DNA of 64,000 bases, taken from NCBI GenBank assembly GCA_963770835.1, contig CAVYRH010000003.1, forward strand, positions 1-64,000, read 5' to 3'. The position numbers and the translations under genes are program-made. Below the pieces are notes generated by a model. That model saw only the letters and a program-made list of their open reading frames with translations, had not been told where the DNA came from and did not search any database. Below are positions 1,610 to 48,670 of the stretch, in pieces (the stretch's first letter is position 1; every line of letters starts with the position of its first letter). Source of the DNA: an uncultured Pseudomonadota bacterium. Lineage in GTDB: Bacteria; Oederibacteriota; Muellerivitia; Muellerivitales; Muellerivitaceae.

Positions 1610-1720
1610 GAAGGTTCCCCGGGGGTAGGACTACGTTATTATTCACAAAGAAGGAAAAGCCTCAAATGGCATTTCCGTAATCCACTTCTCGGCTGGCCAT
1701 TAAAAAGTTTGTCCACGACG

Positions 1721-3661: not shown

Positions 3662-3678
3662 GGGACCCATCGTGGACA

Positions 3679-9922: not shown

Positions 9923-9956
9923 AATTTATTTGGAAACAAAACGTCTGACCACCACC

Positions 9957-10008
9957 TGTCCAGAACGGGGAACGCCACGCACCGCAGCTTGACGCAGTGG
10001 CATTGGAC
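9957..10008 (+). repeat. Degenerate 28-bp site with an internal insertion
   Basis: TGTCCAGAACG-GGGAAC...ATTGGAC, at the same offset from its gene end as the intact site at 14921. Confidence 0.55.
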
Positions 10009-10183
10009 GAATTCTTATGATTCAAACCTGTCGTCAAAAATTGTCACTTTCAGTTTAGGTTTCTAGCCTTTCCTTAGCCTTGAGGCCACCATCAATTCCA
10101 TCCATTCCTTAGATAATTCCGTCCATTTTGTTTTTCCGGCAAAGGCAGTATTTTGTTTTTCAAGGAATTGGGCGGAGGGGGAA

Positions 10184-10546
10184 ATGCCGAAAACTAAAAT
10201 AGTCATTAACCGCAGGGTTAATCCCCGGGTTTTGATCAAGGTCCCCGTTAAATTCGTTCCGGCAGAAGATAAAAAAGTCTCCAAAAAGATCGAGGATTGG
10301 CGCGAATCCAAGAAATGTGGATTCACTCTTGATTTGAGCACTGGCGGCATGCAGCTTGCTGCGGACCATCACTTGACGGTCGGCAGCGTGTTGGAATTTA
10401 ACATTTACATCTTGGACAAGGTGAAGGTCGTGACCGTCTATGCCAAGGTGGTGTGGACGAATAAGAATAGCACCGGACTTCATTTCCTTCTGATTAAACC
10501 CGCCGAAATGGACGCCTTGACGTCTTTCCTTCAAAAGGCTTCTTAA
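10184..10546 (+). CDS. PilZ-domain protein (c-di-GMP receptor)
   Basis: RxxxR (RRVNPR) and DxSxGG (DLSTGG) motifs. Confidence 0.88.
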   Translation: MPKTKIVINRRVNPRVLIKVPVKFVPAEDKKVSKKIEDWRESKKCGFTLDLSTGGMQLAADHHLTVGSVLEFNIYILDKVKVVTVYAKVVWTNKNSTGLHFLLIKPAEMDALTSFLQKAS

Positions 10547-10712
10547 CGCAACGTTTATATAGTTTCTAACCCGATTTTTGACCCCGGTTAATCCCATCCA
10601 TCCTTTTGATAATTCCGTCAATTCTTATTAACGGACTTCTTTGCGATCATTACGTCACGGGTTGGTCCGAGGCCGTCTGAAAACGCTTCGGGCAAATGAT
10701 CGCAGGGGCGAA

Positions 10713-12872: not shown

Positions 12873-12909
12873 AACAGCATGAGGTTGAGGTCAACCATTT
12901 CAAGGGGAG

Positions 12910-14886
12910 TTGTCGGTGAAACAGTTATTTCTAAAATTCTCGAAATTTTTTTTAAACACGCCTTCCCGAATCGTTTCATTTACCGCCTTGTTTTTTCTGG
13001 CTCCTTCCGCCTGGGCCAAGCCCCCCTACCTCGTTTTCGGATATCTTCCGGATTACGACACCGTCACCTTAAGCGCCCTTTCCTGGGGCGACATGACCCA
13101 TGTGTTGGAAGCCTTCGCTGAGTTAGACGTAAATTACAACGTCACCTTTCCCTATGGCCAGAGGGCCAACCTGGTTTCCACCGCCCATTCCAACAACACG
13201 CGGTGCCTGCTTTCCTTCGGGGGGGAAGGTTCGGGCAGCGGCTACTGGCCCGCGCCCGGTGCCTCCATGATTACGGCAGTGAATAACATCATGGCGGTGG
13301 TCAACTCCAATGGTTACGACGGCGTGGATATCGACTGGGAATTTCCCACAGCGAGCAACGAATCCGACTTCATGGGTTTAATGACGGCGCTGGCCGGCGC
13401 TCTCCACGTCACGAACGGCTATGACGGCAAACCCCGGCAGCTGACCTTTACCATCAGCGCGGGCGCGAATATCTGCGGCATCAACTGGGCCACCATCGGG
13501 CAGTATGCCGATTTCGGAATTCTCATGGGGTACAGCTATGGATTGGACCAATTCAACGGTCCCATGATCGATACCGCCGAATACGGGGACTGCGCCGGCA
13601 ACTACAACATACTGGGCGACATTGTGGACTCGGTGAGGCGGGTGACGGGCTGGGGACTTTCCTCCGGTCAAATCATTCTGGCCTGTCCTCTCTATTCCAA
13701 CCAGGGGAACACGCTGACGACCATCCTTGCGGGTACTTTGACCAACTTTTACACTCCCCAGGACGAGGCCTCCTACAGCAGCGGCGACACCGGTGTGGAA
13801 AACGCGCAAACCTATTGCGATAAGATCAATTGGTGCGGGACGCAGTCGCCCCCGCTTCCTGGCATCGGACTATGGGAAATTTCCCAGGCCTATCCGCCTA
13901 CCGCCAACGCGGGGATATCCCAAGTATGGGCTGTGATCGGGGCGCGCAGTTCCTGCGTGACCTACGGCGGCGCCACCCCGACTCATACGGCTACCAATAC
14001 CGCCATCTCCACCGCCACTCAAACCTCCACCCATACCGCGACCAATAGCCCCACCAATACGTTTTTCCCCACGGGGACAAGTACTCCTACGGGTACCGCG
14101 ACAAACAAAACGACGAACACGCCTACGGTCACTCCAACTCCAACCACCACTCATACAGCGACCAATACAGCCAGTTCAACTGCGACTCAAACCTCCATGA
14201 GCATCGCGTCTTCAACAGCGACCCATACGTTGACGGCTACGCCGTCAAATACTCCTACGGGCACACCCACTTTAACCGCTACCTATACGCCAACTAGCAC
14301 ACCTGCGAAAACTTCTACCGATTCTCCAACGAATACGCCCTCGGACACACCGACTTCAACGAACACTCATACTTCTACCAACAGCCCGACCAATACCGCG
14401 ACCAATACGTTGTCCCTTACGGGGACAAGTACTCCTACGGGCACACCTACAGCCACAGCGACCAGCACTCGTACGAATACACGGACGATTACCTCCACCA
14501 GTAGCCCCACCGATACGGCGTCGAATACTTTGACGCCTTCGGCGACAGCGACCGTGACCCACACAGCCACTATTACTCCCACCGATACCGCGACGATCGC
14601 GTCGGTGGTTGTGATCTCCGCCCCCTATCCGAATCCTTCAAGGGGATTGCCTATTTCATTTAATGTCTCGGTGCCGGGTGAATCGACGTTGACGCTGGAT
14701 GTGTTTACCTTGGCTTTCCGCAAGATATACAGCGAAATGATCCAGGCTGATGGCTCTTTAACCCTTCGGTGGGATTTAAGGGATGTTTCGGGAATACAGG
14801 TGGCGAATGGGGTTTATTACGTTCGTATCCACGTCGCGGGCAGCCAATCGGCGACAAAAATTCTTAAAGTACTCATCCTGAGATAA
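12910..14886 (+). CDS. Secreted GH18 chitinase-like hydrolase with Thr-rich linker and C-terminal sorting-like domain
   Basis: LLSFGG and catalytic [11 protein letters not shown] (DxxDxDxE). Confidence 0.88.
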
Positions 14887-14920: not shown

Positions 14921-14948
14921 TGTCCACGACAGGGACCCGTCGTGGACG
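14921..14948 (+). repeat. 28-bp 11-6-11 site
   Basis: TGTCCACGACA-GGGACC-CGTCGTGGACG. Confidence 0.9.
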
Positions 14949-35953: not shown

Positions 35954-36076
35954 GGGATGGTGATTGGATTATATTGAATGAACTTTTCAAATCCATTGAA
36001 ATTCGGGTGGCGTATCGGTTTGCCATTCCGAGCTTTGAACTGCGAAAAGGCAGGTAATACAGCGCAGGAACAACCA

Positions 36077-36155
36077 CCCTCATCCCAACCTTCTCCCCTT
36101 AAGGGAGAAGGAGCCAGTCTCCCTCGCCCCTTGGGGGAGAGGGTGGGGTGAGGGG
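36077..36155. repeat. Intergenic palindromic repeat of the CCCTCACCCC...GGGAGAGGG type
   Basis: Two inverted hairpin units: CCCTCATCCCAACCTTCTCCC..GGGAGAAGG and CCCTCGCCCC..GGGGAGAGGGTGGGGTGAGGGG. Confidence 0.7.
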
Positions 36156-36365
36156 TGCCTTGGAGGTTGTTCCTTAGTAAGGAAAAAAGTCGATAGGCTT
36201 GGTTTGCGACAAGCTTGTGGCGCGTTGGCCCAAAACGACGAAAAACCTGAGGTTGCCACGTCGGCAATCGCCCCGATTGGGGCGCCTCCTCGCAATGACA
36301 CCAATCATTACGACATGGTTCAAGGTTCTCGCAATGACAACTTAAATAAAAGGCAGGGAAGTGCC

Positions 36366-37376
36366 GTGAAAGTTCTCATTGTGAAAATCGCCGCGGTCGG
36401 GGACGTGGTCATGGCCCTTGCCATGCTGGAACCCTTCCTCCAAAAGGACCCGGACGCCCAAATTACCTGGGTTTGTGGCAAGACGGTTGAACCCCTCCTG
36501 CGGCAGGTTGGAAAAATACATGAACTCATCGTGGTGGATGAAGCCAAGCTGTTGAAGGGCGGGTTCATCCCAAAAGCCCTGGCCTTGGCCGGCGTTTGGG
36601 CCAAGCTTTTGGGGAGGCGGTTTGATTTGGCGGTGACGGGCCACTCGGACCCGCGCTACCGGCTTTTAAGCCTTCCGGCCTCCGCGGCAATCCGCCGGGG
36701 TTTCGGCAAACAAGCGGACGGAAGAACAGGGCCGGTGAGCGGACGGTATCACGCGGATGAATATGCCCGCCTGGCGACGGGGGCGGACGGCCCAACGGCG
36801 GTAAAAGCTTCCATCCCCATCCTTCGGCTGCCTTTACCGGCGGAGTTGGAACAGATTCTCCAGCCGGGAAAGAAAATCGTCGCCCTCGCCCCGGGCGGCG
36901 CCAGGAACATCCTGAGGGATGACGCCCTCAGGCGATGGCCGCTGGAAAATTACGCCCAATTGGCGGAAAAGTTCCTGCGGGACGGGTTTCAAGTGCTGGT
37001 GACGGGCTCTTTATCGGACTTTTGGATCAGGGAATCCTTCAAAAATATGGCCGTCACCGATTTAGTGGGCCAAACACCCCTTCCGGACTTGATCGCCCTT
37101 TATGGGAAATGCCATCTGGTGGTCACGCACGACAGCGGGCCGCTTCACCTGGCTGTCGCATCGGGCGTTCCGGTTTTAGCCCTCTTCGGCCCCACCGTTC
37201 CGATGGAGAAGGTTCCCGTCAGTGAAAAAGTCAGCGTGATTTGGGGCGGAGAACATTTGGCCTGCCGGCCCTGTTACGATGGAAAAAATTACGCCGATTG
37301 CAACGACAACCAGTGCCTGAAAAGCGTCGGGGTGGAACGGGTTTATGCCGAGGCCAGCCGGATGCTCCGCGGATAG
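36366..37376 (+). CDS. GT9 heptosyltransferase family (GTG 36366 preferred)
   Basis: KIAAVGDV, RRWP, VTHDSGPLHLA, LACRPC. Confidence 0.9.
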   Translation: MKVLIVKIAAVGDVVMALAMLEPFLQKDPDAQITWVCGKTVEPLLRQVGKIHELIVVDEAKLLKGGFIPKALALAGVWAKLLGRRFDLAVTGHSDPRYRLLSLPASAAIRRGFGKQADGRTGPVSGRYHADEYARLATGADGPTAVKASIPILRLPLPAELEQILQPGKKIVALAPGGARNILRDDALRRWPLENYAQLAEKFLRDGFQVLVTGSLSDFWIRESFKNMAVTDLVGQTPLPDLIALYGKCHLVVTHDSGPLHLAVASGVPVLALFGPTVPMEKVPVSEKVSVIWGGEHLACRPCYDGKNYADCNDNQCLKSVGVERVYAEASRMLRG

Positions 37377-37391
37377 GACCCGCATTGGACA
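37364..37391 (+). repeat. Degenerate 28-bp site at the left border of the array, overlapping the GT9 stop
   Basis: GCTCCGCGGAT-AGGACC-CGCATTGGACA. Confidence 0.55.
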
Positions 37392-37521
37392 GTCAAAAGT
37401 AAGTTGGAGTGGCATTTTGGAAAATCAAATTGACATAAAAGAGACCATGAAAGTCCTTTTGAACGCCTGGTGTGACCGTCGTTGCTTCCGTGCACTTCGG
37501 TTCATTTTACAAGGATGGCCG

Positions 37522-37668
37522 ATGCCCATGGGTTTGACTGACGATGTGAACAACTTATTAACCGCCCTGAAACACGTCCGGTCAATGGCAAGGGATGAGT
37601 TGACTGAAAAGGAGCTATATCAAGTTGACGCCATAGTGATTCAAGTTGAGAAAGCCTTAAACCGGTGA
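37522..37668 (+). CDS. Small hypothetical protein (48 aa)
   Basis: AAGGA RBS; ends 17 bp before a 28-bp site. Confidence 0.5.
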   Translation: MPMGLTDDVNNLLTALKHVRSMARDELTEKELYQVDAIVIQVEKALNR

Positions 37669-37685
37669 ATTGAACAATTTGAAGT

Positions 37686-37713
37686 TGTCCACGATAGGGA
37701 CCCGGATTGGACA
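37686..37713 (+). repeat. 28-bp 11-6-11 site
   Basis: TGTCCACGATA-GGGACC-CGGATTGGACA. Confidence 0.85.
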
Positions 37714-37762
37714 AGGAATCATGGTAAAGATAGAACCGTTTTAATAAGAAGAAGGAAAATCG

Positions 37763-38260
37763 ATGATTCGCTTGAGGGAACTGGTTGAGGGGGATGCGGA
37801 TATTCTTTTTCCCTTAATTTTTAAAACGCCTGTTACCGCTACCATATTGTGGGACGGACCCGATTCCATTGATTCTTACAGGAAAGCTATGGATTTGCGG
37901 CAAGCGCAGACACGGAACGGGGAAGCCCATTTTTTCGTCATCACTGAAGTAAGCACAAATAAACCTATCGGAACTATAACGATTCGCCCGGAAGAGAATA
38001 AGCTCCGGGGCGATATAGGACTTTGGATTGGGTTGCCCTTTCAGAGAAAGGGTTATGGTACCCAAGCCGTGAAAGATATTGTGAAATACGGTTTCGAAAA
38101 ATTAAGGCTTCAGAAAATTGAGGCGACAGTCTTTTTGGGTAATTTGGGCAGCCGAAGAATTTTCGAAAAAAACGGGTTCGTTTTAGAAGGAACAATCCGA
38201 AAGGCCTCATTAAAGCGTGGGAAGCTTATTGATGAATGGCTTTTAGGGATTGTTGAGTAA
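37763..38260 (+). CDS. GNAT N-acetyltransferase (RimJ/RimL family)
   Basis: IGLWIG, QRKGYGT, NLGSRRIFEKNGFVLEG. Confidence 0.9.
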   Translation: MIRLRELVEGDADILFPLIFKTPVTATILWDGPDSIDSYRKAMDLRQAQTRNGEAHFFVITEVSTNKPIGTITIRPEENKLRGDIGLWIGLPFQRKGYGTQAVKDIVKYGFEKLRLQKIEATVFLGNLGSRRIFEKNGFVLEGTIRKASLKRGKLIDEWLLGIVE

Positions 38261-38283
38261 ATATCTTTTCAATAGTCTAAGTT

Positions 38284-38311
38284 TGCCTACGACGGGGACC
38301 CAGAGTGGACA
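38284..38311 (+). repeat. 28-bp 11-6-11 site (intron target)
   Basis: TGCCTACGACG-GGGACC-CAGAGTGGACA. Confidence 0.85.
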
Positions 38312-39111
38312 TCGTGCCAGAGGAGGGTTTGCAGAGCCAGCAGGTGAGGGAGTAGGCCGATGAGGGTCAACCCAAGTCCTGACCAGGTAATCACCAGAGA
38401 GCCTGGAAGTCAGCCCCCGGCGTAGGATCGAGAGGTCCTGCCCGAAACGGGGTCATAAACCTCATTTAGTGAGGGAACAATCCAGCAGTCCGCAACATCA
38501 AGTGAATCCTGCCGCTTCGTGAATGGGACACCGAAAGGTGCAAGGGGATGCCGAGCCGCGTGTCTACTGGCGAAGGCCACGATCCCGCTGAAGAATCTGG
38601 TAGCAAGCGGGGCAAGTCCTCCGGAGTATGGGGAACGGAATGTTGGAAAGGCTATGCAAGCAAGCTGGGAGATCCTACCCGCCAAAAGACTTGCCGCTAT
38701 AAGGCTAAAACCGAAAAGAGGCAAGGGTGGGAGGAAGTCGGAGGGGGTCACAGTACCGATGAAGGGGTGGACAACAAAACCACCCTGAGGGAAGGACCCC
38801 TGCTTCAACCATGTGTCTCAAAGAAGGTAGGCGCTGGAGCATGCCCCAAAAGGGCCAACAACTCTGTAGTACCAAAGCGCGAGGCCTTTGACAACAGGCA
38901 CTATGCCGAGCGGCCAAGGGGGAAGTCGAACCTGTAAAGCCGCCGGAGGAGAGGTTGTCGGAAAGCCGTATGATCGAAAAGGTCACGTACGGTTTGACGA
39001 GGGGGCGCTGGAAACGAAGTGATGAGGGAACCTCGTTGGGGCACGGAACCGGAAACGGGGAAACAGATCAAGGAACCCTCTGCACACCATCGCGCCAGTG
39101 CTCTACTCTGC
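38312..39111 (+). mobile_element. ORF-less group II intron family B, copy 2
   Basis: 800 bp; no difference from 3679-4478 seen by eye. Confidence 0.88.
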
Positions 39112-39130
39112 AGCCTAGAAAGAGGAAACT

Positions 39131-39385
39131 ATGAAGAAATCTGTAACGCAGCCCTGGAACAAAAAGAAGGCCATCCAGGTCGGTGGTCCGCACACGGGCA
39201 TCGAATTCTTAAAAATCCCCAAGCCCGCGCAAAGGGCCCTTCTCAACAATGGCATCCGCACCATTGCCGATCTTTCAAAAAGAACAGTGGAAGAGGTGAA
39301 AAAGTTCCATGGAATCGGGCCTTCGACCTTTCTGGTTTTGAAACAAGCGCTTCGCCAGAACGGGATAACTTTTAAAGAGTCTTAA
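39131..39385 (+). CDS. Small helix-hairpin-helix DNA-binding protein (RNAP alpha-CTD-like)
   Basis: PAQRALLNNGIRTIADLS, FHGIGP. Confidence 0.78.
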   Translation: MKKSVTQPWNKKKAIQVGGPHTGIEFLKIPKPAQRALLNNGIRTIADLSKRTVEEVKKFHGIGPSTFLVLKQALRQNGITFKES

Positions 39386-39415
39386 TAACCTACCGTTTTA
39401 AACTGTCATGGAAGT

Positions 39416-39443
39416 TGTCCACGACGGGGACCCGTCGTGGACA
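39416..39443 (+). repeat. 28-bp 11-6-11 site, consensus copy (intron target)
   Basis: TGTCCACGACG-GGGACC-CGTCGTGGACA. Confidence 0.92.
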
Positions 39444-39990
39444 TCGTGCCAGCGAAGGTTTGTAGAGCCAGCAGGTGAGGGAGTAGGCCGAAGAGGGCCA
39501 GCCCAAATCCTGACCAGGTAATCGCCAGAGAGCCTGGAAGTCAGCCCCCGGCGTAGGATCGAGAGGTTCTGCCCGAAACGGGGTCATAAACCTCATGCAG
39601 TGAGGGAACCATCCAGCAGTCCGCAACATCAAGTGAATCCTGCCGCGTCGTGAATGGGACACCGAAAGGTGCAAGAGGATGCCGAGCCGCGTGTCTACCG
39701 GCGAAGGCCATGATCCCGCTGAAGAATCTGGAGCAAGCGGGGCAAGTCCTCCGGCGTACGGGGAACGGAATGTTGGAAAGGCTTTGCAGGCAACCTGGGA
39801 GATCCTACCCGCCAAAAGACTTGCCGCTATAAGGCTAAAACCGAAAAGGGGCAAGGGCGGGAGGAAGTCGGAGGGGGTCACAGTACCGTTGAAGGGTGGA
39901 CAACAAAACCACCTGGAGGGAAGGACCCCTGCTTCAACCAAGCAACCGGAAAAGGGAGGCGCTGGAGCATGCTCCAAAGGGCCAACAACT

Positions 39991-41513
39991 GATATGAATG
40001 AGCCAGTCAAGCCCGCTGGTTTTTCCTTTGGTTTTATCCTACTCTTTTCCACCTCAAGGCCCTGCGAAAAGCCCTGATCTCGAAAGCCCGGCTTGTTTCG
40101 ACGATGAATCAAACTGATATTCGCGTGTTAGACCCATTGCTGGTTCCAGGGACGCAAGATTTTCATTCGTCGGGAGCTGCCTCGATCTCTGATCGTGGGT
40201 CGTCGCAGGCTTAGGCCTTTGCGCCACAGAGTTGTACCGAGGGTTCTCCAAATCGTTGCCAAGCTTCCGGAAACAGGGTTCTTCCTTCATGACCTTGTTA
40301 AACCATTCCTGTTGTTTCCTGGGCGATGGCCCACACAAATCCAGCCAACTCCCGGGCTACGGCCACCACTACTTTTTGGATGGGCTTGTTACGTTGGGTC
40401 ATTTTTAGAAACTTTTTGTACAGACGATCCTGTGCTCTGCGGGCGATCTTTAAAATCTCCACCGGACAACCCTCCCGCCTTTTTTCTAAAACCACGCCGA
40501 CCGACTTCCCATGGCGGTAACTCCAAGCCGATTCCACAAGAATCCGTCTCAAATGGGCGTTCCCGGTCTTGGTGATTCCTCCCCGACGGATTTTTCCACC
40601 TGAACTGCTTTCACATATCCCCAAACCCGCGTAACCCATGAAATTACGAGCGCTCTCAAATCGCCTCAAATCTTGGCCTTCCACCGCCAAGGTCATGGCG
40701 CTCAAGGTATCAACCCCTTTCAGGCACCTCAAATGCTTGACCAGTTTCCTGTAGGGTTCTTGGCTGGCCATCTCCTCCACTCGGCTCGTCAAACTCCTCA
40801 ACCGCTCATCTGCCTCTTGCTTCCCGCGGACATATGCCTCGAAAGTCTCATGCAGTTCCAGAGGTTCGAACTTTTGGGTTTTCAGCCATGCCTCATGGGC
40901 TGATCTCCAATTCTTAGCTTCTCGAAAGATACGACCTTGCCGAAGAAAGAAATTCGACAACCGGTGCCGGGCCTTTTGCCGGTCTTCTAGGGCATCCTCA
41001 CGAACTCGAACCAGATCCCGACAGGCTTCCTCTTGGATGGTCGGAACCCGCACTTCCGTCAGCTCTCCCGCCCTCCAAAGACGGGCCAACTTTTCCGCAT
41101 CTCGGCGGTCTGTCTTCACCCGATCCCCGGCTTTCACTGGAATTTTCCCAGGGGCGATTACGACGCACTTCAACCCCTTTTGGGTTAATTGCCGGTGGAT
41201 GTCATATCCACAAGGGCCCGCCTCGTACACAAACGTTATTGACCCTCGTCCTTCGTACTTACCCAGCATTTTCCCCAATGCTTTTGGGGTGTTCTCGATT
41301 GTAAAAATATCCTTCACATTTTCGGCCCTAGCCGGCAGGACCGCACCTACCACCGTATCCTTATGGACATCCAACCCGACCACCGTGATATTATTTTCCA
41401 TGAGCCAGCCCTCCGTATGCGGATAGGCTCCCTCAAGGAGCAACCCGCGAATTAGGGCCCTTCAACAAGGCCCGTTTTATTTTACGCAGGCCGCTGGCTC
41501 ATTCATGTTATCT
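39991..41513 (-). mobile_element. IS110-family (IS1111-like) element 1
   Basis: 13-bp subterminal inverted repeats ATGAATGAGCCAG/CTGGCTCATTCAT; CT core at both junctions; about 300-bp non-coding region 3' of the transposase. Confidence 0.9.
40298..41443 (-). CDS. IS110-family DEDD transposase/recombinase
   Basis: VGLDVHK, YEAGPCG, KTDRRDA, SSGG, ITKTGNAHLR, VVAVAREL. Confidence 0.95.
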   Translation of the reverse strand: MLLEGAYPHTEGWLMENNITVVGLDVHKDTVVGAVLPARAENVKDIFTIENTPKALGKMLGKYEGRGSITFVYEAGPCGYDIHRQLTQKGLKCVVIAPGKIPVKAGDRVKTDRRDAEKLARLWRAGELTEVRVPTIQEEACRDLVRVREDALEDRQKARHRLSNFFLRQGRIFREAKNWRSAHEAWLKTQKFEPLELHETFEAYVRGKQEADERLRSLTSRVEEMASQEPYRKLVKHLRCLKGVDTLSAMTLAVEGQDLRRFESARNFMGYAGLGICESSSGGKIRRGGITKTGNAHLRRILVESAWSYRHGKSVGVVLEKRREGCPVEILKIARRAQDRLYKKFLKMTQRNKPIQKVVVAVARELAGFVWAIAQETTGMV

Positions 41514-42986
41514 CCGAAGACAAGGCGCGAACCCTTCAAAGGGCGCTATACCGAGCGGCCAAGAGGAGCCCAAGCCGAAGATTTCATGTACTGCATGACA
41601 GGATGACCCGATGGGATGTCCTGACAGCGGCATGGAAACAGGTGAAGGCTAATAAAGGCCAAGGAGGAGTGGACGGGGAAACGCTGGAATGGATTGAAGA
41701 GAAAGTGGGGACTATTCCATTCCTGAAGGGCATTCAGGAAGAACTCAAGGCTGGGAAGTATCTGCCTAAACCTGTGAGACGAGTGGAAATACCCAAACCC
41801 GATGGTAGCAAGAGGCCGTTGGGAATCCCGGTGATTCGGGATCGGGTAGTTCAAGCGGCTTGCCGGAAGTTGGTGGAACCCATCTTTGAGGCGGACTTTC
41901 TGGAAGGCTCGTTTGGATTTCGGCCAAAACGCGGAGCCCAACAGGCCCACCGGGAGATCAAGAAGTGGATCAACGGGGGGTACACATGGGTGGTCGATGG
42001 AGATATTAGGAAGTACTTCGATTCCATCGACCACGACAAACTGATGGTGCTTGTGCGCCAGAGGGTCAGTGATCGAAAGGTTCTGAAACTGATCCAAGGG
42101 TGGCTGAAGGCGGGTGTGTTTGAGGAAGGAAGGCTTACGCCGACTCTCCGAGGGACACCGCAAGGCGGGGTGATCTCACCGCTGTTATCCAATGTTTACC
42201 TTCACTTGCTGGACAAGGTTTGGAATAAGAGGCACAGGAAACTGGGTAGGCTGGTGCGCTACGCCGACGATTTTGTGGTGTTGTGCGGAAGCCAAGCCCA
42301 TGCGGAAAAGAGCCTGGAAGTCATCAAGGAATTGATGGGACGACTAGGGCTTGAACTGCACCCCGAAAAGACACGGCTGGTGGAAATGGGGCCTGGGAAG
42401 GAAGGGTTTGACTTCCTTGGGTTCCACTTTCGAGTAGGTATGCCGGTGGTAGGATTGGGTAAGACCTGTTGCCTGAGCTGGCCGAGCCGGAAGGCCATGA
42501 AGAAAATCGCCGAGAAAGTGAAGCAGATGACGGCGGGCCGAGAGCGGCTCTTATCTCCAATGGAGGATGTAGCGAAGGCTTTGAACCCGGTGTTAAGGGG
42601 GTGGGTCAACTATTTCCGAATTGGGGACAGCCAGCCATACTTTTCCAAGCTTCAATTTTACGTACTCGAAAGGCTGACTTTGTTCCGGAGGCGTAAGTAC
42701 GCCTGGGAAGGACGAACATGGTCGATCGAGGAAGTGAAACGCCTTGGTTTGAACTGGATTCCAGCTTTTGCCTTGAATGCTGCCGGTTGAAAGGTTGTCG
42801 GAAAGCCGTATGATCGAAAAGGTCACGTACGGTTTGATGAGGGGGCGCTGGAAACGTGGTGATGAGAGCCGGACTGAGGCCCAATCCGAAAGGGTTGGAT
42901 TCGCCACCGTACTCTAAGGCATACGCGCCAGCGCTCTACTCTGCGGTAGAAAAAGCTTACGAAGCCTCGAAGCATATGGGGGGGGG

Positions 42987-43450
42987 TGAATTCTTATCAT
43001 GAGGCGTTTGAATACAATGGAGATATTCCAGACATACTCATCGATAACACTTCTCTTGAGGACTGGAAACGGATGATGGAATACGCCCTTCGTTTTGGCG
43101 CACGACTTCATTTTCAAGCGGAAGGTGAAGACGAAGAAAAATCTATTTCAACCGATTTCAAATTTTTGTTCGGTCCGAAAAAACCCTATGTAGATATATT
43201 CATCGACTTCGATGAGATGGGGATAATCGGGCGTGCATTCTCTCCTGAATCAATTCTCATGGATGTGGACCTACGCGAAATTAATTCTTCTCAAAAAGAG
43301 GAAGCGTTCATCAAGTTTTTTCAGGGTTTAACCAATGCCCTCGGCAAAGAATGCGGCGTCAGCGAAAATGCCAATTATCCACCTTTTCTTAAATTCCTCC
43401 CCGGGGGAGACAATCCGATTTACGAACCTTCTTGTAAGATAAAACCGTAA
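42987..43450 (+). CDS. Hypothetical protein (154 aa, acidic); start approximate
   Basis: ORF fills the interval between the intron end and the next 28-bp site, which lies 3 bp after the stop. Confidence 0.65.
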
Positions 43451-43453
43451 ATT

Positions 43454-43481
43454 TGTCCACGACGGGGACCCGTCGTGGACA
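43454..43481 (+). repeat. 28-bp 11-6-11 site, consensus copy, unoccupied
   Basis: TGTCCACGACG-GGGACC-CGTCGTGGACA. Confidence 0.92.
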
Positions 43482-43612
43482 ACAAAGAATTGTAAAAAAG
43501 GTCATTTCAAAGGGTGCCCGCAACTCTCATGCCTCTTAAATTTGTATTTTGAGGTAATCTTTATTGGTCTCACGTCCTTAGGAACGTTAGTATTTCGAGA
43601 ATTATTGATTGG

Positions 43613-45292
43613 GTGACACCAGTGAAATGTCTGTCGCAAAAGAAAACCGTCGGCTTTTCGCGAAAATCGGTTTTAAAAACTTTAGCGTTTTCTTTTATAA
43701 CCTTTTGCCTATTGTTCGTCCATTCTTCAACCTGGGCCATCCCGACTTCTGGTACCAATTTCTGGCTGTGCTTTCCATATGCTGAACCTTCAGCCGAGCA
43801 ATACATTGTTTTGCTTCTCGCCAGCAATATCGCCACTACCGCTACTGTTTTGGATCCTACTGCGGGAACCGCAACTTATACCATCACACCCGGCTCTACG
43901 ACCGCGGTAACGCTTCTACTTGCCGACCAAATGAACCCGGCCAACGATGATACGGTCACGCACTTAGGGATCCAGGTTACATCCCTGGATGCTATTTCGG
44001 TCTATGGAATCAATTACATTCAATTTAACACGGACGGTTACCTAGCATTGCCGGTCAACGCCCTGGGAAACAGTTATATCGTGGTCAATTACGAATGTGA
44101 GGGAAGCGGCTTTGAAGTTCAAAGTGAATTTTCGATCGTTGGGACCCAAAACGCAACCAGCGTGACCATCACACCTTCCGCCGCCGCGGATTCCCAGACT
44201 GCGGGAATCCCTTACGTCATTGCCTTGAACCAGGGTGATACTTATGAATTGGGCACGACCATCATCGGTGATGACTTAACTGGAACCCTGATCCAGTCAA
44301 ACCAGCCCATCGCGGTCTTTGGGGATAATGCCGTAGCCCAGGTTCCCACTGCCTATCCTTCAGGAAACCAGTTACTTGAGGAGCTTTGGCCCGTCAACGA
44401 TTGGGGCACAAATTTCGTGACCCTCCCTTTGGCTACCCGGACAGGAGGAGACACCTTCCGATTCTTGGCTTCGGTCAACGGAACCACAGTGAACGTCAAT
44501 GGAACAGTTTTACCAGTGCTCAACCAGGGCCAATTCGCCGAGCAGATCATCGCGGCCCCGGGATGGATCACGGCCAACAATCCCATTTACGTCACCCAAT
44601 ATTCCAATAGCCACAGTTACGATTGCGGCCTTGGCCTTGTTTGTATGGATGCGGATCCTTTCATGATCACGGTCCCGCCGACGAGCCAATACGGGAACAA
44701 TTACTTGACCAGCGTTTTGCCCCCGAGTTTTGGATTCTCGCCCAATTATGAAAATTTACTCGTTCCCACCTCGGCGGTTGGCGCGGTCTCGCTGGATGGA
44801 GCAGCAATTCCAGCGGCCAGTTTCGTTCCTATCGGGGCTAGCGGTTATTCAGGTGCGGCTGTATCGGTTTCGGCGGCGGAACATGTGCTCGTAGGCGTGG
44901 CGCCTTTCGGCGCCTTGGTTTATGGATTCAATACCTCGGATGGGTATGGTTATCCCGCTGGGTCTTTGGTGAGTAGCGCCACCGCCACCGCGACCGTACT
45001 TCCTACTTCGATCCCCACGTCCCCCTGTGCCATCCATGTTTGGCCCGATCCCTTTAACCCCCAATATGCTATTGGCGGAACCTTAAAAGTCGGCTGTCTC
45101 CCGCCCGGGGCCACGGTGTCTTTTTATACTGTTTCGGGAGAACTGGTGAGCCAAGTGAACGAAGCCGGTGGAATGGCTCAATGGGCTGGAACCAACCGCC
45201 AGAACCTATTGGTTTCGTCGGGAATTTATTTCTACGTCATCCAAAACGGAAGTAATGTTCTGGGGCGGGGCAAGTTTCTGATTAACCGTTGA
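43613..45292 (+). CDS. Secreted IgGFc-binding-protein N-terminal-domain protein with FlgD/CTD-like tail
   Basis: GTNFWLCF, DGYLALPVNALGNSY, DLTGTLIQSNQPIAVF, ADPFM, YGYPAG; tail WPDPFNP...SSGIYFY. Confidence 0.75.
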   Translation: MTPVKCLSQKKTVGFSRKSVLKTLAFSFITFCLLFVHSSTWAIPTSGTNFWLCFPYAEPSAEQYIVLLLASNIATTATVLDPTAGTATYTITPGSTTAVTLLLADQMNPANDDTVTHLGIQVTSLDAISVYGINYIQFNTDGYLALPVNALGNSYIVVNYECEGSGFEVQSEFSIVGTQNATSVTITPSAAADSQTAGIPYVIALNQGDTYELGTTIIGDDLTGTLIQSNQPIAVFGDNAVAQVPTAYPSGNQLLEELWPVNDWGTNFVTLPLATRTGGDTFRFLASVNGTTVNVNGTVLPVLNQGQFAEQIIAAPGWITANNPIYVTQYSNSHSYDCGLGLVCMDADPFMITVPPTSQYGNNYLTSVLPPSFGFSPNYENLLVPTSAVGAVSLDGAAIPAASFVPIGASGYSGAAVSVSAAEHVLVGVAPFGALVYGFNTSDGYGYPAGSLVSSATATATVLPTSIPTSPCAIHVWPDPFNPQYAIGGTLKVGCLPPGATVSFYTVSGELVSQVNEAGGMAQWAGTNRQNLLVSSGIYFYVIQNGSNVLGRGKFLINR

Positions 45293-45299
45293 TTTTGGC

Positions 45300-45327
45300 T
45301 GTCCGCGACGGGGACCCATCGTGGACA
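45300..45327 (+). repeat. 28-bp 11-6-11 site (IS target)
   Basis: TGTCCGCGACG-GGGACC-CATCGTGGACA. Confidence 0.9.
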
Positions 45328-45395
45328 GGTAACATGATGGCCATTCCACCGCCGGGATTAAACTATTCCCGGTGAGTAGCCACTCATAAGGAGGA

Positions 45396-46472
45396 ATGAC
45401 CATGAAACAGATTAGCAAAAAAGGATTCCAAGGCAAGGAGGTATCCAAGCGGGACGCCGTGTTTGTGGGGCTCGATGTCCACAAACGAAGTATTTACGTA
45501 GCAATCAGGATCAATGGAAAGGAAACCGGAACCAAGTCTGTGCCCGCGGATTGGGAAGCTGTGGTGAAGGTTCTGGAGCCTTACCGAAAAGGGTTAAAAA
45601 AGGTCGTCTACGAGGCAGGACCTACTGGCTTTGGCTTGGCACGTCGCCTTCGGGAAGTGGGATACCCATTGGACGTCATCGCCCCGAACAAAACACCTCG
45701 TGTAGCTCAGTTGGAAACAAAATCCGACCGGTTGGACTGCCGCAAGCTGGCGGAGTACGCCGAAAAGGATCTCTTGCGGGCTGTGGCGATCCCAACCCTC
45801 CAGGAAGAAGCGGATCGGCAAGTGGTGCGTTTGAGAAACGCGATGGTGGAACAAAAACGCAAGGCCAAACAAAGGATCAAAAGCTTTTTCCTCCAATATG
45901 GATTCAAGGAACCTAGAGGGCTGGATTACTGGACCCACGAGGCCATCGGAGTTTTGCGGGATATGGAACTGCCGCCGGCCCTGAGATTCACGTTGGATAG
46001 CCTATTGGAAGATCTCTTTTACTTTGATAGGCAGCTTAAAGACGTGAACATACGTTTGCGGGTCATGATGAAGGACAAGGCCTACGAGAAAAAGGCTAAG
46101 ATCCTCAGGTCCCACCCGGGAGTGGGTGAAGTAACGACCCTGCAAATGTTAACGGAGATTTACCAGCCGGAGCGCTTTCAAAACGCCAAACAGGTGGCGG
46201 CTTACGTGGGGTTGGCCCCAAGGATCAGGCAAAGCGGAGAAACTCGAAAGGAAGGCCATTTGCAGAAGGCCGGAAAAGGAACCTTGAGGGCTACCTTAGT
46301 TGAAGCTGCCTGGTCATGGATTCAAAAGGATACCCAGGCCAACCGCGTTTTCCGCCGGTTCGTCCGTAATACGGGGCATGTCAACAAAGCGATTGTGGCA
46401 ATGGCTCACAAGCTTTTGATTCACCTTTGGACTATGTTGGTTCGAAAGGAAGTTTATCGGCCCATGCTCTAA
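45396..46472 (+). CDS. IS110-family DEDD transposase/recombinase
   Basis: VGLDVHK, YEAGPTG, KSDRLDC, PGVG, GLAPRIRQSG, AIVAMAHKL. Confidence 0.95.
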   Translation: MTMKQISKKGFQGKEVSKRDAVFVGLDVHKRSIYVAIRINGKETGTKSVPADWEAVVKVLEPYRKGLKKVVYEAGPTGFGLARRLREVGYPLDVIAPNKTPRVAQLETKSDRLDCRKLAEYAEKDLLRAVAIPTLQEEADRQVVRLRNAMVEQKRKAKQRIKSFFLQYGFKEPRGLDYWTHEAIGVLRDMELPPALRFTLDSLLEDLFYFDRQLKDVNIRLRVMMKDKAYEKKAKILRSHPGVGEVTTLQMLTEIYQPERFQNAKQVAAYVGLAPRIRQSGETRKEGHLQKAGKGTLRATLVEAAWSWIQKDTQANRVFRRFVRNTGHVNKAIVAMAHKLLIHLWTMLVRKEVYRPML

Positions 46473-46660
46473 AGAGGTTTCAGCCTCAGTTTCGTGATTC
46501 GACCCCTTAGGAATGACCACGAGTTTTAGCTGTGCCTTAGGCACGTTGGACAGGTGGTGGCTTCCCTCAGGATTATCGAATTCTTATCTTGTGCCTCGAG
46601 CACGAATAGCAGCGTGAATCCACGAAACCAAAAGGCTGACCGTAGGAGAAAATTGGACTT
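46473..46660 (+). ncRNA. Putative bridge/seek RNA of IS element 2
   Basis: Two repeated GTGC-N5-GCAC hairpins, each flanked by segments matching the target (TGGACAG) or donor junction (ATAGCAG). Confidence 0.7.
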
Positions 46661-46748
46661 GAGGAATGGCCTCATAGCAGGAATGGCCTCATAGCAGGTA
46701 AAATTGGCTCAGCTGGGGGTTGGTCAACATGACCTGGGGGGATAAAAA

Positions 46749-47144
46749 ATGGAAGATTTGAAAGAAATCGCCCAAACGATATGCCGGTACCCCCTCATAT
46801 CGGACAAATCGATTCAAGATTATTTAAAAGAATCCGGATTTATGGACCACCGGAAGAACATTTGTGTTGAAGACTTCAAAGAATATTTAGAAGGCCACAA
46901 GGATTTAATAGATAAATGGATTGGGTGGTCAGACAAACGAACGGATTTTGGGTGGACATTCAGCAGTTGGGGGCAGGATGGATATTATCGGATCACTGGA
47001 TATGGCATCAAAGATCCCAAACCGAATCTGGGCCATGAATTAACATTTAAAAGTTCAATTGATGCGGTTGCGACCTATATCAGTCTCGAAATGAATGCTT
47101 GGGCTCAGTTTAACGAAAATAAGCAACCCGGAAAATGGTGGTAA
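46749..47144 (+). CDS. Hypothetical protein (131 aa)
   Basis: G-rich RBS; ORF ends 22 bp before a 28-bp site. Confidence 0.68.
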   Translation: MEDLKEIAQTICRYPLISDKSIQDYLKESGFMDHRKNICVEDFKEYLEGHKDLIDKWIGWSDKRTDFGWTFSSWGQDGYYRITGYGIKDPKPNLGHELTFKSSIDAVATYISLEMNAWAQFNENKQPGKWW

Positions 47145-47166
47145 CGGATTTTTGATAGTTCATGGT

Positions 47167-47194
47167 TGTCCGCGACGGGGACCCTTCGTGAACA
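47167..47194 (+). repeat. 28-bp 11-6-11 site preceding cas1
   Basis: TGTCCGCGACG-GGGACC-CTTCGTGAACA. Confidence 0.85.
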
Positions 47195-47268
47195 ACGAAA
47201 ATAATGGATAATGGTATTCAGGCACTTTCAGCATAAAGATGGTTTACAAAATTTGGGGGGCAGACCAC

Positions 47269-48279
47269 ATGGACTTGCTTATTGATACTTACGGTACCAA
47301 GATCGGCGTAAATGGCGAGCGCATCGTCCTTTCTTTTCCGAAAGTTAAAGAGAAAAAAGAATACCCCATCCATAGACTGGAGAAAATAGTCATACTGCGG
47401 CCGGCCTCGCTCACGACTCACGCGGTTCAGCTCGCGATTGAGCACGATGTTGATATCGTCTATCTCGGTTCTTTTGGCAAGCCCATCGGAAGACTATTTT
47501 CAAGCGAACCAAAAGGGCTGGCGAGTCTTCGTAAAGCGCAACTGGAAGCGTCAACTTCGCTTGAGCGATCGTTCAAAATCGCGAAAGAATTAGTGCGGGG
47601 CAAATGCGCTAATCAGCTCGATCTACTCCGATATCTCGCGTACCGATATAAAAAGGATGTGGGGACCGAACTCTTACAAGCGCAGACCCTTTTTGATGTC
47701 TTGGACAATGTCCCGTGTTCGGAGAAAGGCAAGGAGCAACTCCTTGGTACGGAAGGATACATCGCGGACAAATATTTCAGCGGGTTAAAAAAATTCTATA
47801 GATTCCCGGGCCGAAAACCACAAGGCAGGGACCAGTTTAACAGCGTACTGAATTATGGTTAGGGCATCCTTTACAATGAAGTCGAACGGGCATGCCTTTA
47901 CGTCGGTCTTGATCCATATCTCGGCCTCTACCACAGTGAACGCTATGGTAAGCCTGCCCTCGTTCTCGATCTTGTCGAAGAATTCCGCGTACCAATCGTC
48001 GACTCGGTGCTTTTCCCGCTTTTCATAGAAAAGAAACTGAGCCAACGGAAATATTTTGAAAAAACCGCGGTTGGGCAATATCTGTTATCGCCTGAGGGAA
48101 AAAGCGTCGTGGTGGGGGCGATCATGAGGCGGTTGAATGAAACGACGGCATGGCGGGGGAAACAATATACTCTTAAGCAGATCATAGATAACCAGATTAG
48201 GGCGTTGGCACGTCACTTTGTCGAAAAGGAGGACAAGTACAACCCGTTTCGTGCGGAAAAACTTTTTTCGATATCATGA
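47269..48279 (+). pseudogene. cas1: CRISPR-associated integrase Cas1 with a premature TAG at 47860-47862
   Basis: LLGTEG, DQFNSVLNYG(Y)GILY, GLDPYLGLYH, LVLDLVEEFR; the second copy has TAC at the same codon. Confidence 0.92.
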
Positions 48280-48611
48280 ACAATTTCAATGCCATCACCC
48301 TAGTATCGTGGGAAACGCGCGACTGGCGGCATCGGGACAAGGCGGTTCTGTGGTGCAAGAATTATGGTCTCAAGCCGGTTTTCCGGAATATGTATATCGG
48401 AAAATTGTATTCAAAAGAACGGGAAAAACTCGAGAATAAATTCAAGGGGGCTTTCGCAAAGAAGACCGAAAAGTTTTTTATCAGTACGCTCTGTCGGTCG
48501 TGCTTTGAAGATTCGGTTTTCGGTGGTACGCTTAGTTCTAAGAAAGATGATGTCGACATTGAAACTGCGTTTGAACTTATCCAAATCACGCCGAATTCGG
48601 CGGAACGGTGA
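48276..48611 (+). CDS. cas2: Divergent Cas2-like protein
   Basis: Overlaps the cas1 stop (ATGA); Cas2-like pattern LVSWET, CKNYGLKPV, YIGKL, LCRSCF; canonical YDI replaced by WET. Confidence 0.72.
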   Translation: MNNFNAITLVSWETRDWRHRDKAVLWCKNYGLKPVFRNMYIGKLYSKEREKLENKFKGAFAKKTEKFFISTLCRSCFEDSVFGGTLSSKKDDVDIETAFELIQITPNSAER

Positions 48612-48633: not shown

Positions 48634-48670
48634 CCTGCACATGCCTGTCGCAAAAAGGATAGTGTGCAAC
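48634..48670 (+). CRISPR. CRISPR-like repeat 1 (37 bp)
   Basis: CCTGCACATGCCTGTCGCAAAAAGGATAGTGTGCAAC, 22 bp after cas2; TGCACA/TGTGCA terminal stem; three identical copies. Confidence 0.72.

What the first reader, a model, noticed from the sequence alone, without database searches (positions are those of the whole stretch)
37364..47194. Integron-like gene cassette array delimited by 28-bp 11-6-11 sites that are not attC
Seen: seven directly oriented sites (37364, 37686, 38284, 39416, 43454, 45300, 47167). Ignoring inserted introns and IS elements, each interval holds one plus-strand gene (small ORF, GNAT, HhH protein, hypothetical, IgGFc-like protein, hypothetical), and the next site lies 3-30 bp after the stop. 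The central GGGACC is invariant in the six good copies, while the arms drift and lose pairing (37686, 38284). Known: inverted 11-bp arms around an asymmetric 6-bp core is the geometry of tyrosine-recombinase sites such as dif. Inference: a recombinase-driven cassette system with the enzyme encoded elsewhere. cas1-cas2 follows the last site and may itself be cargo.
Basis: partly seen in the sequence, partly recalled or inferred. Interest (0 to 1): 0.9.

Follow-up and report, generated by a model that had tools for sequence, protein, structure and literature searches.

The report
Serine-recombinase gene-cassette arrays
An uncultured soil bacterium keeps rows of swappable single-gene packets joined by one 28-base palindrome at whose centre DNA has been exchanged, and the likeliest, still untested, enzyme is a shortened serine recombinase, which would make this an integron-like gene-collecting system built from different parts.

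Summary
The seven sites are real: 89 copies genome-wide against 0 in the reversed control, and the pattern occurs in 19 of 24 same-family genomes and 0 of 16 others. They delimit mobile cassettes. Three window units recur in other genera, joined at a site to other neighbours, and each arm travels with its own flank. The symmetry is 13-GA-13, not 11-6-11, and exchange maps to positions 12-15. The genome's only serine recombinase (contig C17, 275 aa, catalytic plus recombinase domain, no zinc ribbon) ends 14 bp from a site. All 11 protein-found members of this short clade have a site at their end (one intron-split); 0 of 22 long relatives do. The host Xer has its own, unrelated dif-like site, and there is no IntI. 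The window shows the first 10 kb of a 73.5-kb island. Against: no circles were seen, activity is untested, engineered integrases lacking these domains integrate poorly, and several site-rich genomes lack the enzyme. I found no paper describing this system in the searches run. The scan noted it before on other genomes; I saw those notes after forming this reading. The cas1-cas2 unit is cargo and carries a CRISPR-like repeat with kilobase spacers.

The parts
36366..37376 (+). Host heptosyltransferase (GT9) gene, left anchor of the island; its last codons form the left half of site 1
   Evidence: PF01075; 6 of 6 orthologous loci lack a site here
37364..37391 (+). Site 1: hybrid of gene end + GA + right arm; left end of a 73.5-kb island that ends at site C3:110839
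37447..37668 (+). Cassette 1 gene, 73 aa, no family hit
37686..37713 (+). Site 2
37763..38260 (+). Cassette 2 gene, GNAT acetyltransferase
   Evidence: PF13302
38284..38311 (+). Site 3
38312..39111 (+). ORF-less group II intron (family B) inserted at the right edge of site 3
   Evidence: Rfam RF02003, RF00029; intron-free allele joins 38311 to 39112 in run X1
39131..39385 (+). Cassette 3 gene, helix-hairpin-helix protein; 85% identical, intron-free, site-bounded copy in G020
   Evidence: L311
39416..39443 (+). Site 4 (consensus)
39444..42944 (+). Group II intron (family B) with reverse transcriptase 41603-42790, interrupted by an IS110-family element (about 39976-41511, transposase on the minus strand)
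42986..43450 (+). Cassette 4 gene, 154 aa, no family hit
43454..43481 (+). Site 5 (consensus)
43613..45292 (+). Cassette 5 gene, IgGFc-binding-like protein with a weak CHU_C-like tail hit (below cut-off)
   Evidence: PF17517
45300..45327 (+). Site 6
45328..46696 (+). IS110-family element inserted at the right edge of site 6 (ends approximate, 7 ambiguous bases)
   Evidence: IS-free joint 45325 to 46695 in run X1
46749..47144 (+). Cassette 6 gene, 131 aa, no family hit; whole cassette 99.8% identical, IS-free and site-bounded with other neighbours in G043
   Evidence: L331
47167..47194 (+). Site 7; its right-arm variant is shared by all copies of the cas1-cas2 unit seen
47239..48611 (+). cas1 (premature stop at 47860-47862 here; intact 346 aa on contig C15) and a cas2-like ORF 48276-48611 with no family hit; cargo unit
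48634..48670 (+). 37-bp CRISPR-like repeat closing the cas unit; first of a series with kilobase spacers
14921..14948 (+). Isolated good copy of the site outside the finding

Best explanation
The 28-bp 13-GA-13 palindrome is the crossover site of a naturally shortened large serine recombinase (about 275 aa: catalytic domain, helix E and recombinase domain; no zinc ribbon or coiled coil). A cassette is right arm - gene - left arm, joined to its neighbours at the GA. SHOWN: cassettes move as units with breakpoints inside the site; the crossover lies between positions 11 and 16; the short recombinase always has a site at its 3' end and is under purifying selection. INFERRED from serine-recombinase chemistry: one subunit binds each 13-bp arm, cuts leave a 2-nt GA overhang, and the non-palindromic GA forces head-to-tail joining, so two sites excise the cassette between them as a circle and a circle can enter any site, restoring a site at both ends. 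Without the domains that tell attP from attB, all sites are equivalent, so arrays grow, shrink and reorder by tandem accretion. The enzyme rides on a mobile unit (with ArdC, and RadC nearby, in three genomes) that uses the same site and acts in trans on enzyme-less arrays like this one. How cassettes are first made is not shown.
For: Arm linkage in 588 distinct sites: groups sharing the downstream flank have identical right arms in 12 of 13 (random pairs 5%); groups sharing the upstream flank have identical left arms in 14 of 19 (random 25%) but identical right arms in only 4 of 19. Bounds: position 11 differs in a same-downstream pair; positions 16, 17 and 18 differ in same-upstream pairs; conservation is 0.97-0.99 at positions 12-15 and 0.84 at 16. 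Of 31 left-arm-only junctions 22 continue with GA (7 of the other 9 look like intron-split sites read on the other strand), and only 5 of those 22 have the consensus C at 16. Within the genome an 863-bp cassette occurs 4 times with 3 different upstream and 2 different downstream neighbours. Window cassettes 3 and 6 and the cas unit recur in G020, G043 and G004. Only one PF00239 protein in the genome, ending 14 bp from a site. Protein-found loci: 10 of 11 short-clade ends have a scored site within 34 bp and the 11th has an intron-split one; 0 of 22 long relatives have one within 300 bp; G043 was a test made after the prediction. Clade of 19 proteins, 68-100% identical, all 275-283 aa; R16, S18, D87, R88, R91 invariant; dN/dS 0.02-0.06 in the catalytic part and 0.10-0.30 in the recombinase domain where dS was computable. 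Top fold matches are serine integrases. In the Listeria integrase structure the recombinase domain has a 13-bp contact area and the zinc ribbon binds positions 16-24 (PMC3783163 section 12), which fits a 13+2+13 site for an enzyme lacking the ribbon.
Against: No activity was tested. No cassette-skipping or circle joint appeared in the contigs of 4 runs (contigs drop rare variants). Listeria integrase without its zinc ribbon binds about 25-fold more weakly, and without its coiled coil it excises promiscuously but gave only background intermolecular integration in E. coli (PMC3783163 section 13) and small amounts in vitro (PMC5499577 section 17), so insertion of circles by this architecture is not a given; no separate zinc-ribbon gene was found in the genome. 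No PF00239 protein was found in site-bearing G003, G012, G018, G023, G041 or G002; remnants of the gene end occur in G002, G003 and G023, none in G012, G018, G041, G044. Linkage has exceptions: 5 of 19 same-upstream groups differ in the left arm and 1 of 13 same-downstream groups differs in the right arm. The position 16-17 bound rests on one clean pair, and the half-site filter is biased against C at 16-18. Adjacency alone would also fit a recombinase unit that is a passenger.
Confidence: 0.73

Rival explanations
1. The cassettes do exchange at the site, but the short serine recombinase is only part of the story: it excises or is a passenger, and an unidentified partner or a different enzyme carries out insertion.
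For: Weak integration by engineered integrases lacking these domains; several site-rich genomes have no trace of the gene; the gene lies tail-to-tail with the array like an incoming unit, and remnants of its 3' end start ordinary-looking cassettes.
Against: The site follows the gene in all 11 short-clade loci across genera; site length matches the domain content; purifying selection on both domains; closest long relatives also end in their apparent target, tRNA-like sequence read by eye.
Confidence: 0.13
2. One reading: a tyrosine recombinase (host Xer, or the multi-copy integrase family of this lineage) acts on an 11-6-11 site with a 6-bp overlap.
For: The 28-bp length equals that of dif; the Xer-like gene is in 23 of 24 family genomes, so it is present in nearly all genomes with arrays; one integrase copy on C26 has a perfect site about 850 bp upstream; one intron family inserts between positions 11 and 12.
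Against: Xer has its own dif-like 11-6-11 site beside its gene in 8 of 8 genomes examined, with unrelated sequence, including genomes without the cassette site; only 1 of 30 integrase loci has a site within 1.5 kb; positions 16-17 of the supposed overlap vary and travel with one flank; no integron integrase over cut-off, best 44.6 against 265 bits.
Confidence: 0.07
3. The palindrome is a passive repeat (REP-like or terminator hairpin) that attracts introns and IS; flank swaps come from homologous recombination at the repeat or from assembly errors.
For: The consensus folds strongly (z -5.1); sites follow stop codons; two intron families and an IS110 element target them.
Against: 4 of 7 window sites fold no better than shuffles; inner arm pairs are complementary in only 49-69% of 588 sites with little excess of compensatory change, and a T run follows in only 58 of 588; the terminator scan lists none of the sites; a 99.8% identical cassette sits between sites in another genus; the island separates two genes that are 35-45 bp apart in 3 of 6 orthologous loci.
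Confidence: 0.04
4. Arrays grow by duplication of the site on insertion, as in CRISPR or transposon target duplication, driven by Cas1-Cas2 or the intron reverse transcriptase.
For: cas1-cas2 lies next to site 7; four consecutive C3 sites share a left-arm variant; neighbours share minor variants at positions 9 and 16 at about twice the shuffled mean.
Against: Arms are inherited with opposite flanks, which duplication does not give; Cas1-Cas2 has its own near-invariant 37-bp repeat whose spacers often cut through genes; that repeat was found in 3 of 24 family genomes against 19 of 24 for the site; the shuffle ran across genomes, so genome-specific variant frequencies can explain the excess.
Confidence: 0.03

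Closest known systems
Integrons and integrase-less attC clusters (IntI, attI, attC)
   Same: Directly repeated sites after mostly single, co-oriented genes (44 of 45 intervals); cargo rich in toxin-antitoxin pairs, GNATs and unknowns; sites targeted by group II introns and IS110/IS1111-type elements, as reported for attC (PMC3001079, passages).
   Different: No IntI; site is a 28-bp near-invariant palindrome, not a folded single-strand attC; crossover is central; candidate enzyme is a serine recombinase lying tail-to-tail at the downstream end; arrays are spread over many loci.
Large serine integrases (Listeria/A118 Int, Bxb1, SPbeta, TndX of Tn5397)
   Same: Catalytic and recombinase domains; central dinucleotide; GA is also the core of TndX targets (PMC4430133, passage); site next to the gene's 3' end.
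   Different: No zinc ribbon or coiled coil in the whole clade; no attP/attB distinction; many equivalent sites per genome, nearly all flanking enzyme-less one-gene cassettes.
SCC/SCCmec composite islands (CcrA/B/C)
   Same: Serine recombinase, tandem accretion at a gene's 3' end, enzyme-less units between repeats (recalled, and named in earlier scan notes); weak profile hits to CcrA/B far below cut-off.
   Different: Ccr are 440-560-aa enzymes acting at one chromosomal site on large elements (lengths, rest recalled); here a 275-aa enzyme, many loci and gene-sized cassettes.
pdif modules of Acinetobacter plasmids (XerC/D)
   Same: 28-bp sites bounding small mobile gene modules found in different contexts, with IS targeting the sites (PMC6160057, passages).
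   Different: pdif sites usually alternate in orientation and use host Xer; here sites are co-oriented (60 of 62) and unrelated to this host's dif-like site.

Membership tests
Integron | Integron integrase IntI | tested here: not met
   TIGR02249 best 44.6 bits against cut-off 265, 12 weak matches
Integron | attC: longer imperfect hairpin with R and L boxes, selected as a folded single strand (definition recalled) | tested here: not met
   28-bp site; 4 of 7 copies fold no better than shuffles; little compensatory change
Integron | Array of co-oriented, mostly single-gene mobile cassettes | tested here: met
Integron | attI and Pc promoter beside the integrase, upstream of the array | tested here: inconclusive
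   Recombinase lies downstream, tail-to-tail; its adjacent site often has a distinct right arm; promoter scan of the window array uninformative, 4 found against 9.6 expected
Xer/dif and pdif modules | Site is the host's dif-type 11-6-11 Xer site | tested here: not met
   A different dif-like site lies beside the xer gene in 8 of 8 genomes
Xer/dif and pdif modules | Modules flanked by inversely oriented sites | tested here: not met
   60 of 62 neighbouring pairs co-oriented; rule from PMC6160057
Large serine integrase system | Serine catalytic domain with intact active site plus recombinase domain | tested here: met
   PF00239 and PF07508; invariant R16, S18, D87, R88, R91; fold matches
Large serine integrase system | Zinc ribbon and coiled coil | tested here: not met
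   Absent in 19 of 19 clade members; no PF13408 in the genome
Large serine integrase system | Distinct attP and attB with directional recombination | tested here: not met
   One site class; arms recombine freely
Large serine integrase system | 2-bp central crossover | tested here: inconclusive
   Bounded to positions 12-15; GA kept in 22 of 31 left-arm hybrids; cut sites not shown
Large serine integrase system | Demonstrated recombination activity | not testable with these tools
   Needs an assay
REP/RAYT | Hairpin repeats with a GTAG-type foot beside a Y1 (RAYT) transposase (definition recalled) | tested here: not met
   No such foot in the matrix; of 11 Y1 genes only one lies inside an array interval, and it is one of six identical-scoring copies

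The most novel reading that the evidence does not exclude
A lineage-wide gene-cassette platform that is an independent invention of the integron idea: a 275-aa serine recombinase that lost its directionality domains recombines any two identical 28-bp sites without helpers, excising and inserting one-gene cassettes that move between genera. One cassette carries Cas1-Cas2, which appears to file kilobase DNA pieces, including pieces of these arrays, between its own repeats, so two capture systems are nested in one island.
Probability: 0.6. Interest if true: 0.92.

Novelty: categorically new. Interest (0 to 1): 0.82.

Why it matters
Integrons are the textbook route by which bacteria collect and shuffle single genes, and they rest on a tyrosine recombinase and folded single-strand sites (established knowledge). 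A parallel system run by a serine recombinase on a short double-stranded palindrome would be missed by integron finders and would mean the cassette gene pool is larger than counted. Both enzyme and site are named here, so the claim can be tested in one reporter assay. A natural 275-aa integrase derivative that works without zinc ribbon and coiled coil would also address how these enzymes pair sites and choose direction, and would be a compact, Cre-like tool of the serine class.

Tried and rejected
Tyrosine recombinases: 12 PF00589 genes examined; Xer and the six-copy integrase family rejected as above. Target-duplication model: neighbour test weak. Hairpin or terminator role: rejected. Reads: no RNA holder listed. 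Contigs of 4 of 13 listed runs showed intron-free and IS-free alleles but no cassette skip or circle; cassette 5 had no cover in X2-X4, which is no evidence at that depth. IMG/VR: 0 pattern matches. The right end of the cas1-cas2 unit could not be fixed, because sites downstream of it lie inside repeat-bounded spacers. The AlphaFold model (pLDDT 78, pTM 0.51) supports the two domains only, not their arrangement. Literature searches for the system listed 2, 13, 0 and 0 papers, none describing it by title or abstract start; the search on kilobase spacers listed one unrelated paper. The library lacks most subscription journals, and no supplements were read.
Full report
OBSERVATION. The seven sites are at the stated positions, each 3-30 bp after the stop of a co-oriented gene. 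The window is the start of contig C3 of a 4.58-Mb genome. A matrix scan found 89 sites and none in the reversed genome; 60 of 62 neighbouring pairs within 8 kb are co-oriented. The exact pattern occurs in 19 of 24 same-family genomes and 0 of 16 genomes of other families, and a slightly looser one in 4 of 5 further family genomes (G041, G043, G044, G046; not G045). The consensus is a 13-bp inverted repeat around GA, with a pyrimidine before it in 535 and a purine after it in 522 of 588 sites. Site 37364 has only GA and the right arm; its left half is the end of the heptosyltransferase gene.

THE INTERVALS ARE MOBILE CASSETTES. Of 45 distinct intervals up to 2.6 kb in this genome, 44 have their largest ORF on the site's strand; the stop lies within 51 bp of the next site in 38 (median 22), and mean GC is 0.45 against 0.52-0.56 for the large contigs. 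Of 41 cargo proteins scanned (of 69 listed; intron and IS ORFs, those scanned earlier and a few others left out), 19 have no Pfam hit; the rest include toxin-antitoxin pairs, GNATs and membrane or secreted proteins. An 863-bp cassette occurs four times with three upstream and two downstream neighbours, and a two-cassette block sits in two contexts. Window cassette 6 is 99.8% identical, IS-free and bounded by sites with other neighbours in G043, another genus; cassette 3 is 85% identical and intron-free between sites in G020; the cas1-cas2 unit is 98.7% identical behind the same right arm in G004. No site follows the heptosyltransferase gene in 6 of 6 orthologous loci. In 3 of the 6 it lies 35-45 bp from a convergent gene which in this genome is 73.5 kb away, with site 37364 at one end and site C3:110839 26 bp from that gene's stop at the other. 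The finding is therefore the first 10 kb of a site-bounded island.

WHERE THE EXCHANGE HAPPENS. Among 588 distinct sites with flanks, those followed or preceded by an intron or IS were set aside. Groups sharing at least 96% of 50 downstream bases but not the upstream ones have identical right arms in 12 of 13 and identical left arms in 6 of 13; groups sharing the upstream bases have identical left arms in 14 of 19 and identical right arms in 4 of 19; random pairs match at 25% (left) and 5% (right). Position 11 differs in a same-downstream pair, and 16, 17 and 18 differ in same-upstream pairs, which bounds the crossover to positions 12-15. Conservation is 0.97-0.99 there and 0.84 at 16. When only the left 13 bases are scored and the right arm is required to be poor, 22 of 31 junctions continue with GA; 7 of the other 9 look like intron-split sites read on the opposite strand; only 5 of the 22 keep C at 16 (the filter is biased against C at 16-18 but neutral on GA). 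This is what a 2-bp serine-type overlap predicts. A 6-bp overlap is not strictly excluded but would have to tolerate mismatches. The exceptions are 5 left-arm differences among same-upstream groups and one right-arm difference among same-downstream groups.

THE ENZYME. The genome has one PF00239 gene, C17:12078-12905, 275 aa, with catalytic and recombinase domains only; its stop is 14 bp from a site on the opposite strand, at the downstream end of an array, with ArdC, a toxin-antitoxin pair and RadC on the other side. It heads a clade of 19 proteins, 68-100% identical and all 275-283 aa; the next relatives are at most 59% identical and many carry the zinc ribbon. In loci found by protein search, 10 of 11 short-clade ends have a scored site within 34 bp and the eleventh has the right half of a site behind an intron; 0 of 22 long relatives have one within 300 bp; 16 further loci lacked room or fitted neither class. 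G043 was fetched after the prediction and fitted. Active-site residues are invariant, dN/dS is 0.02-0.06 in the catalytic part and 0.10-0.30 in the recombinase domain, and the model's top matches are serine integrases. In the Listeria integrase the recombinase domain has a 13-bp contact area and the zinc ribbon binds positions 16-24 (PMC3783163, section 12 read), so an enzyme without the ribbon should read 13+2+13 bases. Loss of the coiled coil makes that integrase excise all site pairs (section 13 read; PMC5499577, abstract and section 17 read). The same texts give the main objection: 25-fold weaker binding without the ribbon and poor intermolecular integration without the coil. Several site-rich genomes lack the intact gene; remnants of its 3' end joined to a site or half-site occur in G002, G003, G004, G014, G020, G021, G023, G043 and G046, none in G012, G018, G041 or G044 (that query included the site, so it favours joined forms).

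TYROSINE ALTERNATIVE. No integron integrase passes cut-off. The Xer-like gene is in 23 of 24 family genomes, including those without the site, and has its own dif-like 11-6-11 palindrome at its 5' end in 8 of 8 genomes examined, unrelated in sequence. The multi-copy integrase family has a site within 1.5 kb in 1 of 30 loci. A hairpin role is unlikely: 4 of 7 window sites fold no better than shuffles and arm changes are mostly uncompensated.

PARASITES AND CARGO. One intron family ends at site position 12 in 10 of 12 copies, a second starts at the site's right edge (18 site-adjacent starts against 17 total starts counted with a stricter pattern), and one IS110 element abuts a site end in 4 of 5 copies; run X1 holds intron-free and IS-free alleles. 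This parallels attC-targeting introns and IS1111 elements (PMC3001079, passages). The cas1-cas2 unit ends in a 37-bp repeat present 27 times, separated by 0.2-12 kb pieces that often begin or end inside ORFs and sometimes contain runs of the 28-bp site; it is a separate system, which may also help spread the arrays.

COMPARISON AND VERDICT. It works like an integron cassette array but is not an integron, a pdif array or a standard serine integrase system, each failing a defining test. The nearest mechanistic kin are serine-recombinase tandem islands such as SCC (recalled). Four searches of the open library found no description; other papers were seen as passages only (PMC6160057; PMC4430133; bioRxiv 10.1101/2021.11.05.467528). 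The scan's own notes describe the same system in other genomes (seen after my reading was noted); they are not independent support. I put exchange of cassettes at the site's centre at about 0.93, the short serine recombinase as the enzyme at about 0.78, and the whole mechanism at 0.73. Interest 0.82.

Noticed in passing
window 48634-48670, 60721, 61839; G000 C3 60-102 kb and 383-401 kb, C15, C16: A 37-bp CRISPR-like repeat (27 copies, nearly all identical) follows cas1-cas2 and encloses 0.2-12 kb pieces, many cutting through ORFs; one piece is a copy of the 3' part of cas1-cas2 itself. Also in G004, G014, G023, where some spacers are 30-68 bp. Looks like Cas1-Cas2 storing kilobase spacers; noted earlier by the scan on other genomes.
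   Followed up: partly
L183:6014-6041 (G000 C11, about 156013): A dif-like 11-6-11 palindrome directly upstream of the Xer-like gene, conserved in 8 of 8 genomes examined: probably the chromosome dimer resolution site of a single-Xer system in this lineage.
   Followed up: partly
window 38312-39111 and 39444-42944: The intron-free allele in run X1 implies that intron family B carries 2 extra bases before its GUGCC-like start and 5 extra bases after its usual end, an unusual boundary for a group II intron.
   Followed up: no
window about 1700-3670: A site split between positions 11 and 12 by intron family A and followed at once by intron family B: two intron families stacked on one site.
   Followed up: partly
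L247, L248, L304, L309, L337: Short remnants of the recombinase gene's 3' end form the start of otherwise ordinary cassettes, hinting that some cassettes descend from the recombinase-bearing unit by deletion or gene replacement.
   Followed up: partly
L215:about 1190-1230: In a metagenome contig the recombinase gene is cut at its 5' end by the 37-bp repeat, as if captured as a giant spacer.
   Followed up: no
L189, L190, L204, L219, L220, L223: Long relatives of the recombinase (49-55% identical) end in or at tRNA-like sequence (read by eye, not scanned), suggesting a tRNA-targeting ancestor.
   Followed up: no
G000 C1, C2, C5 (two), C10, C26: A six-copy tyrosine integrase family, present in 25 of 30 family genomes with up to 9 copies; targets not examined.
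   Followed up: partly
window 47860-47862: cas1 carries a premature stop in this copy, whereas the C15 copy is intact (346 aa).
   Followed up: yes
window 8900-14600: Long threonine/proline-rich repeat coding tracts (12-bp period), typical of this lineage's surface proteins per earlier scan notes.
   Followed up: no
window about 36070-36160: A short GC-rich repeat just upstream of the heptosyltransferase gene draws very high contig depth and go-back joints in three runs: another abundant repeat family.
   Followed up: no
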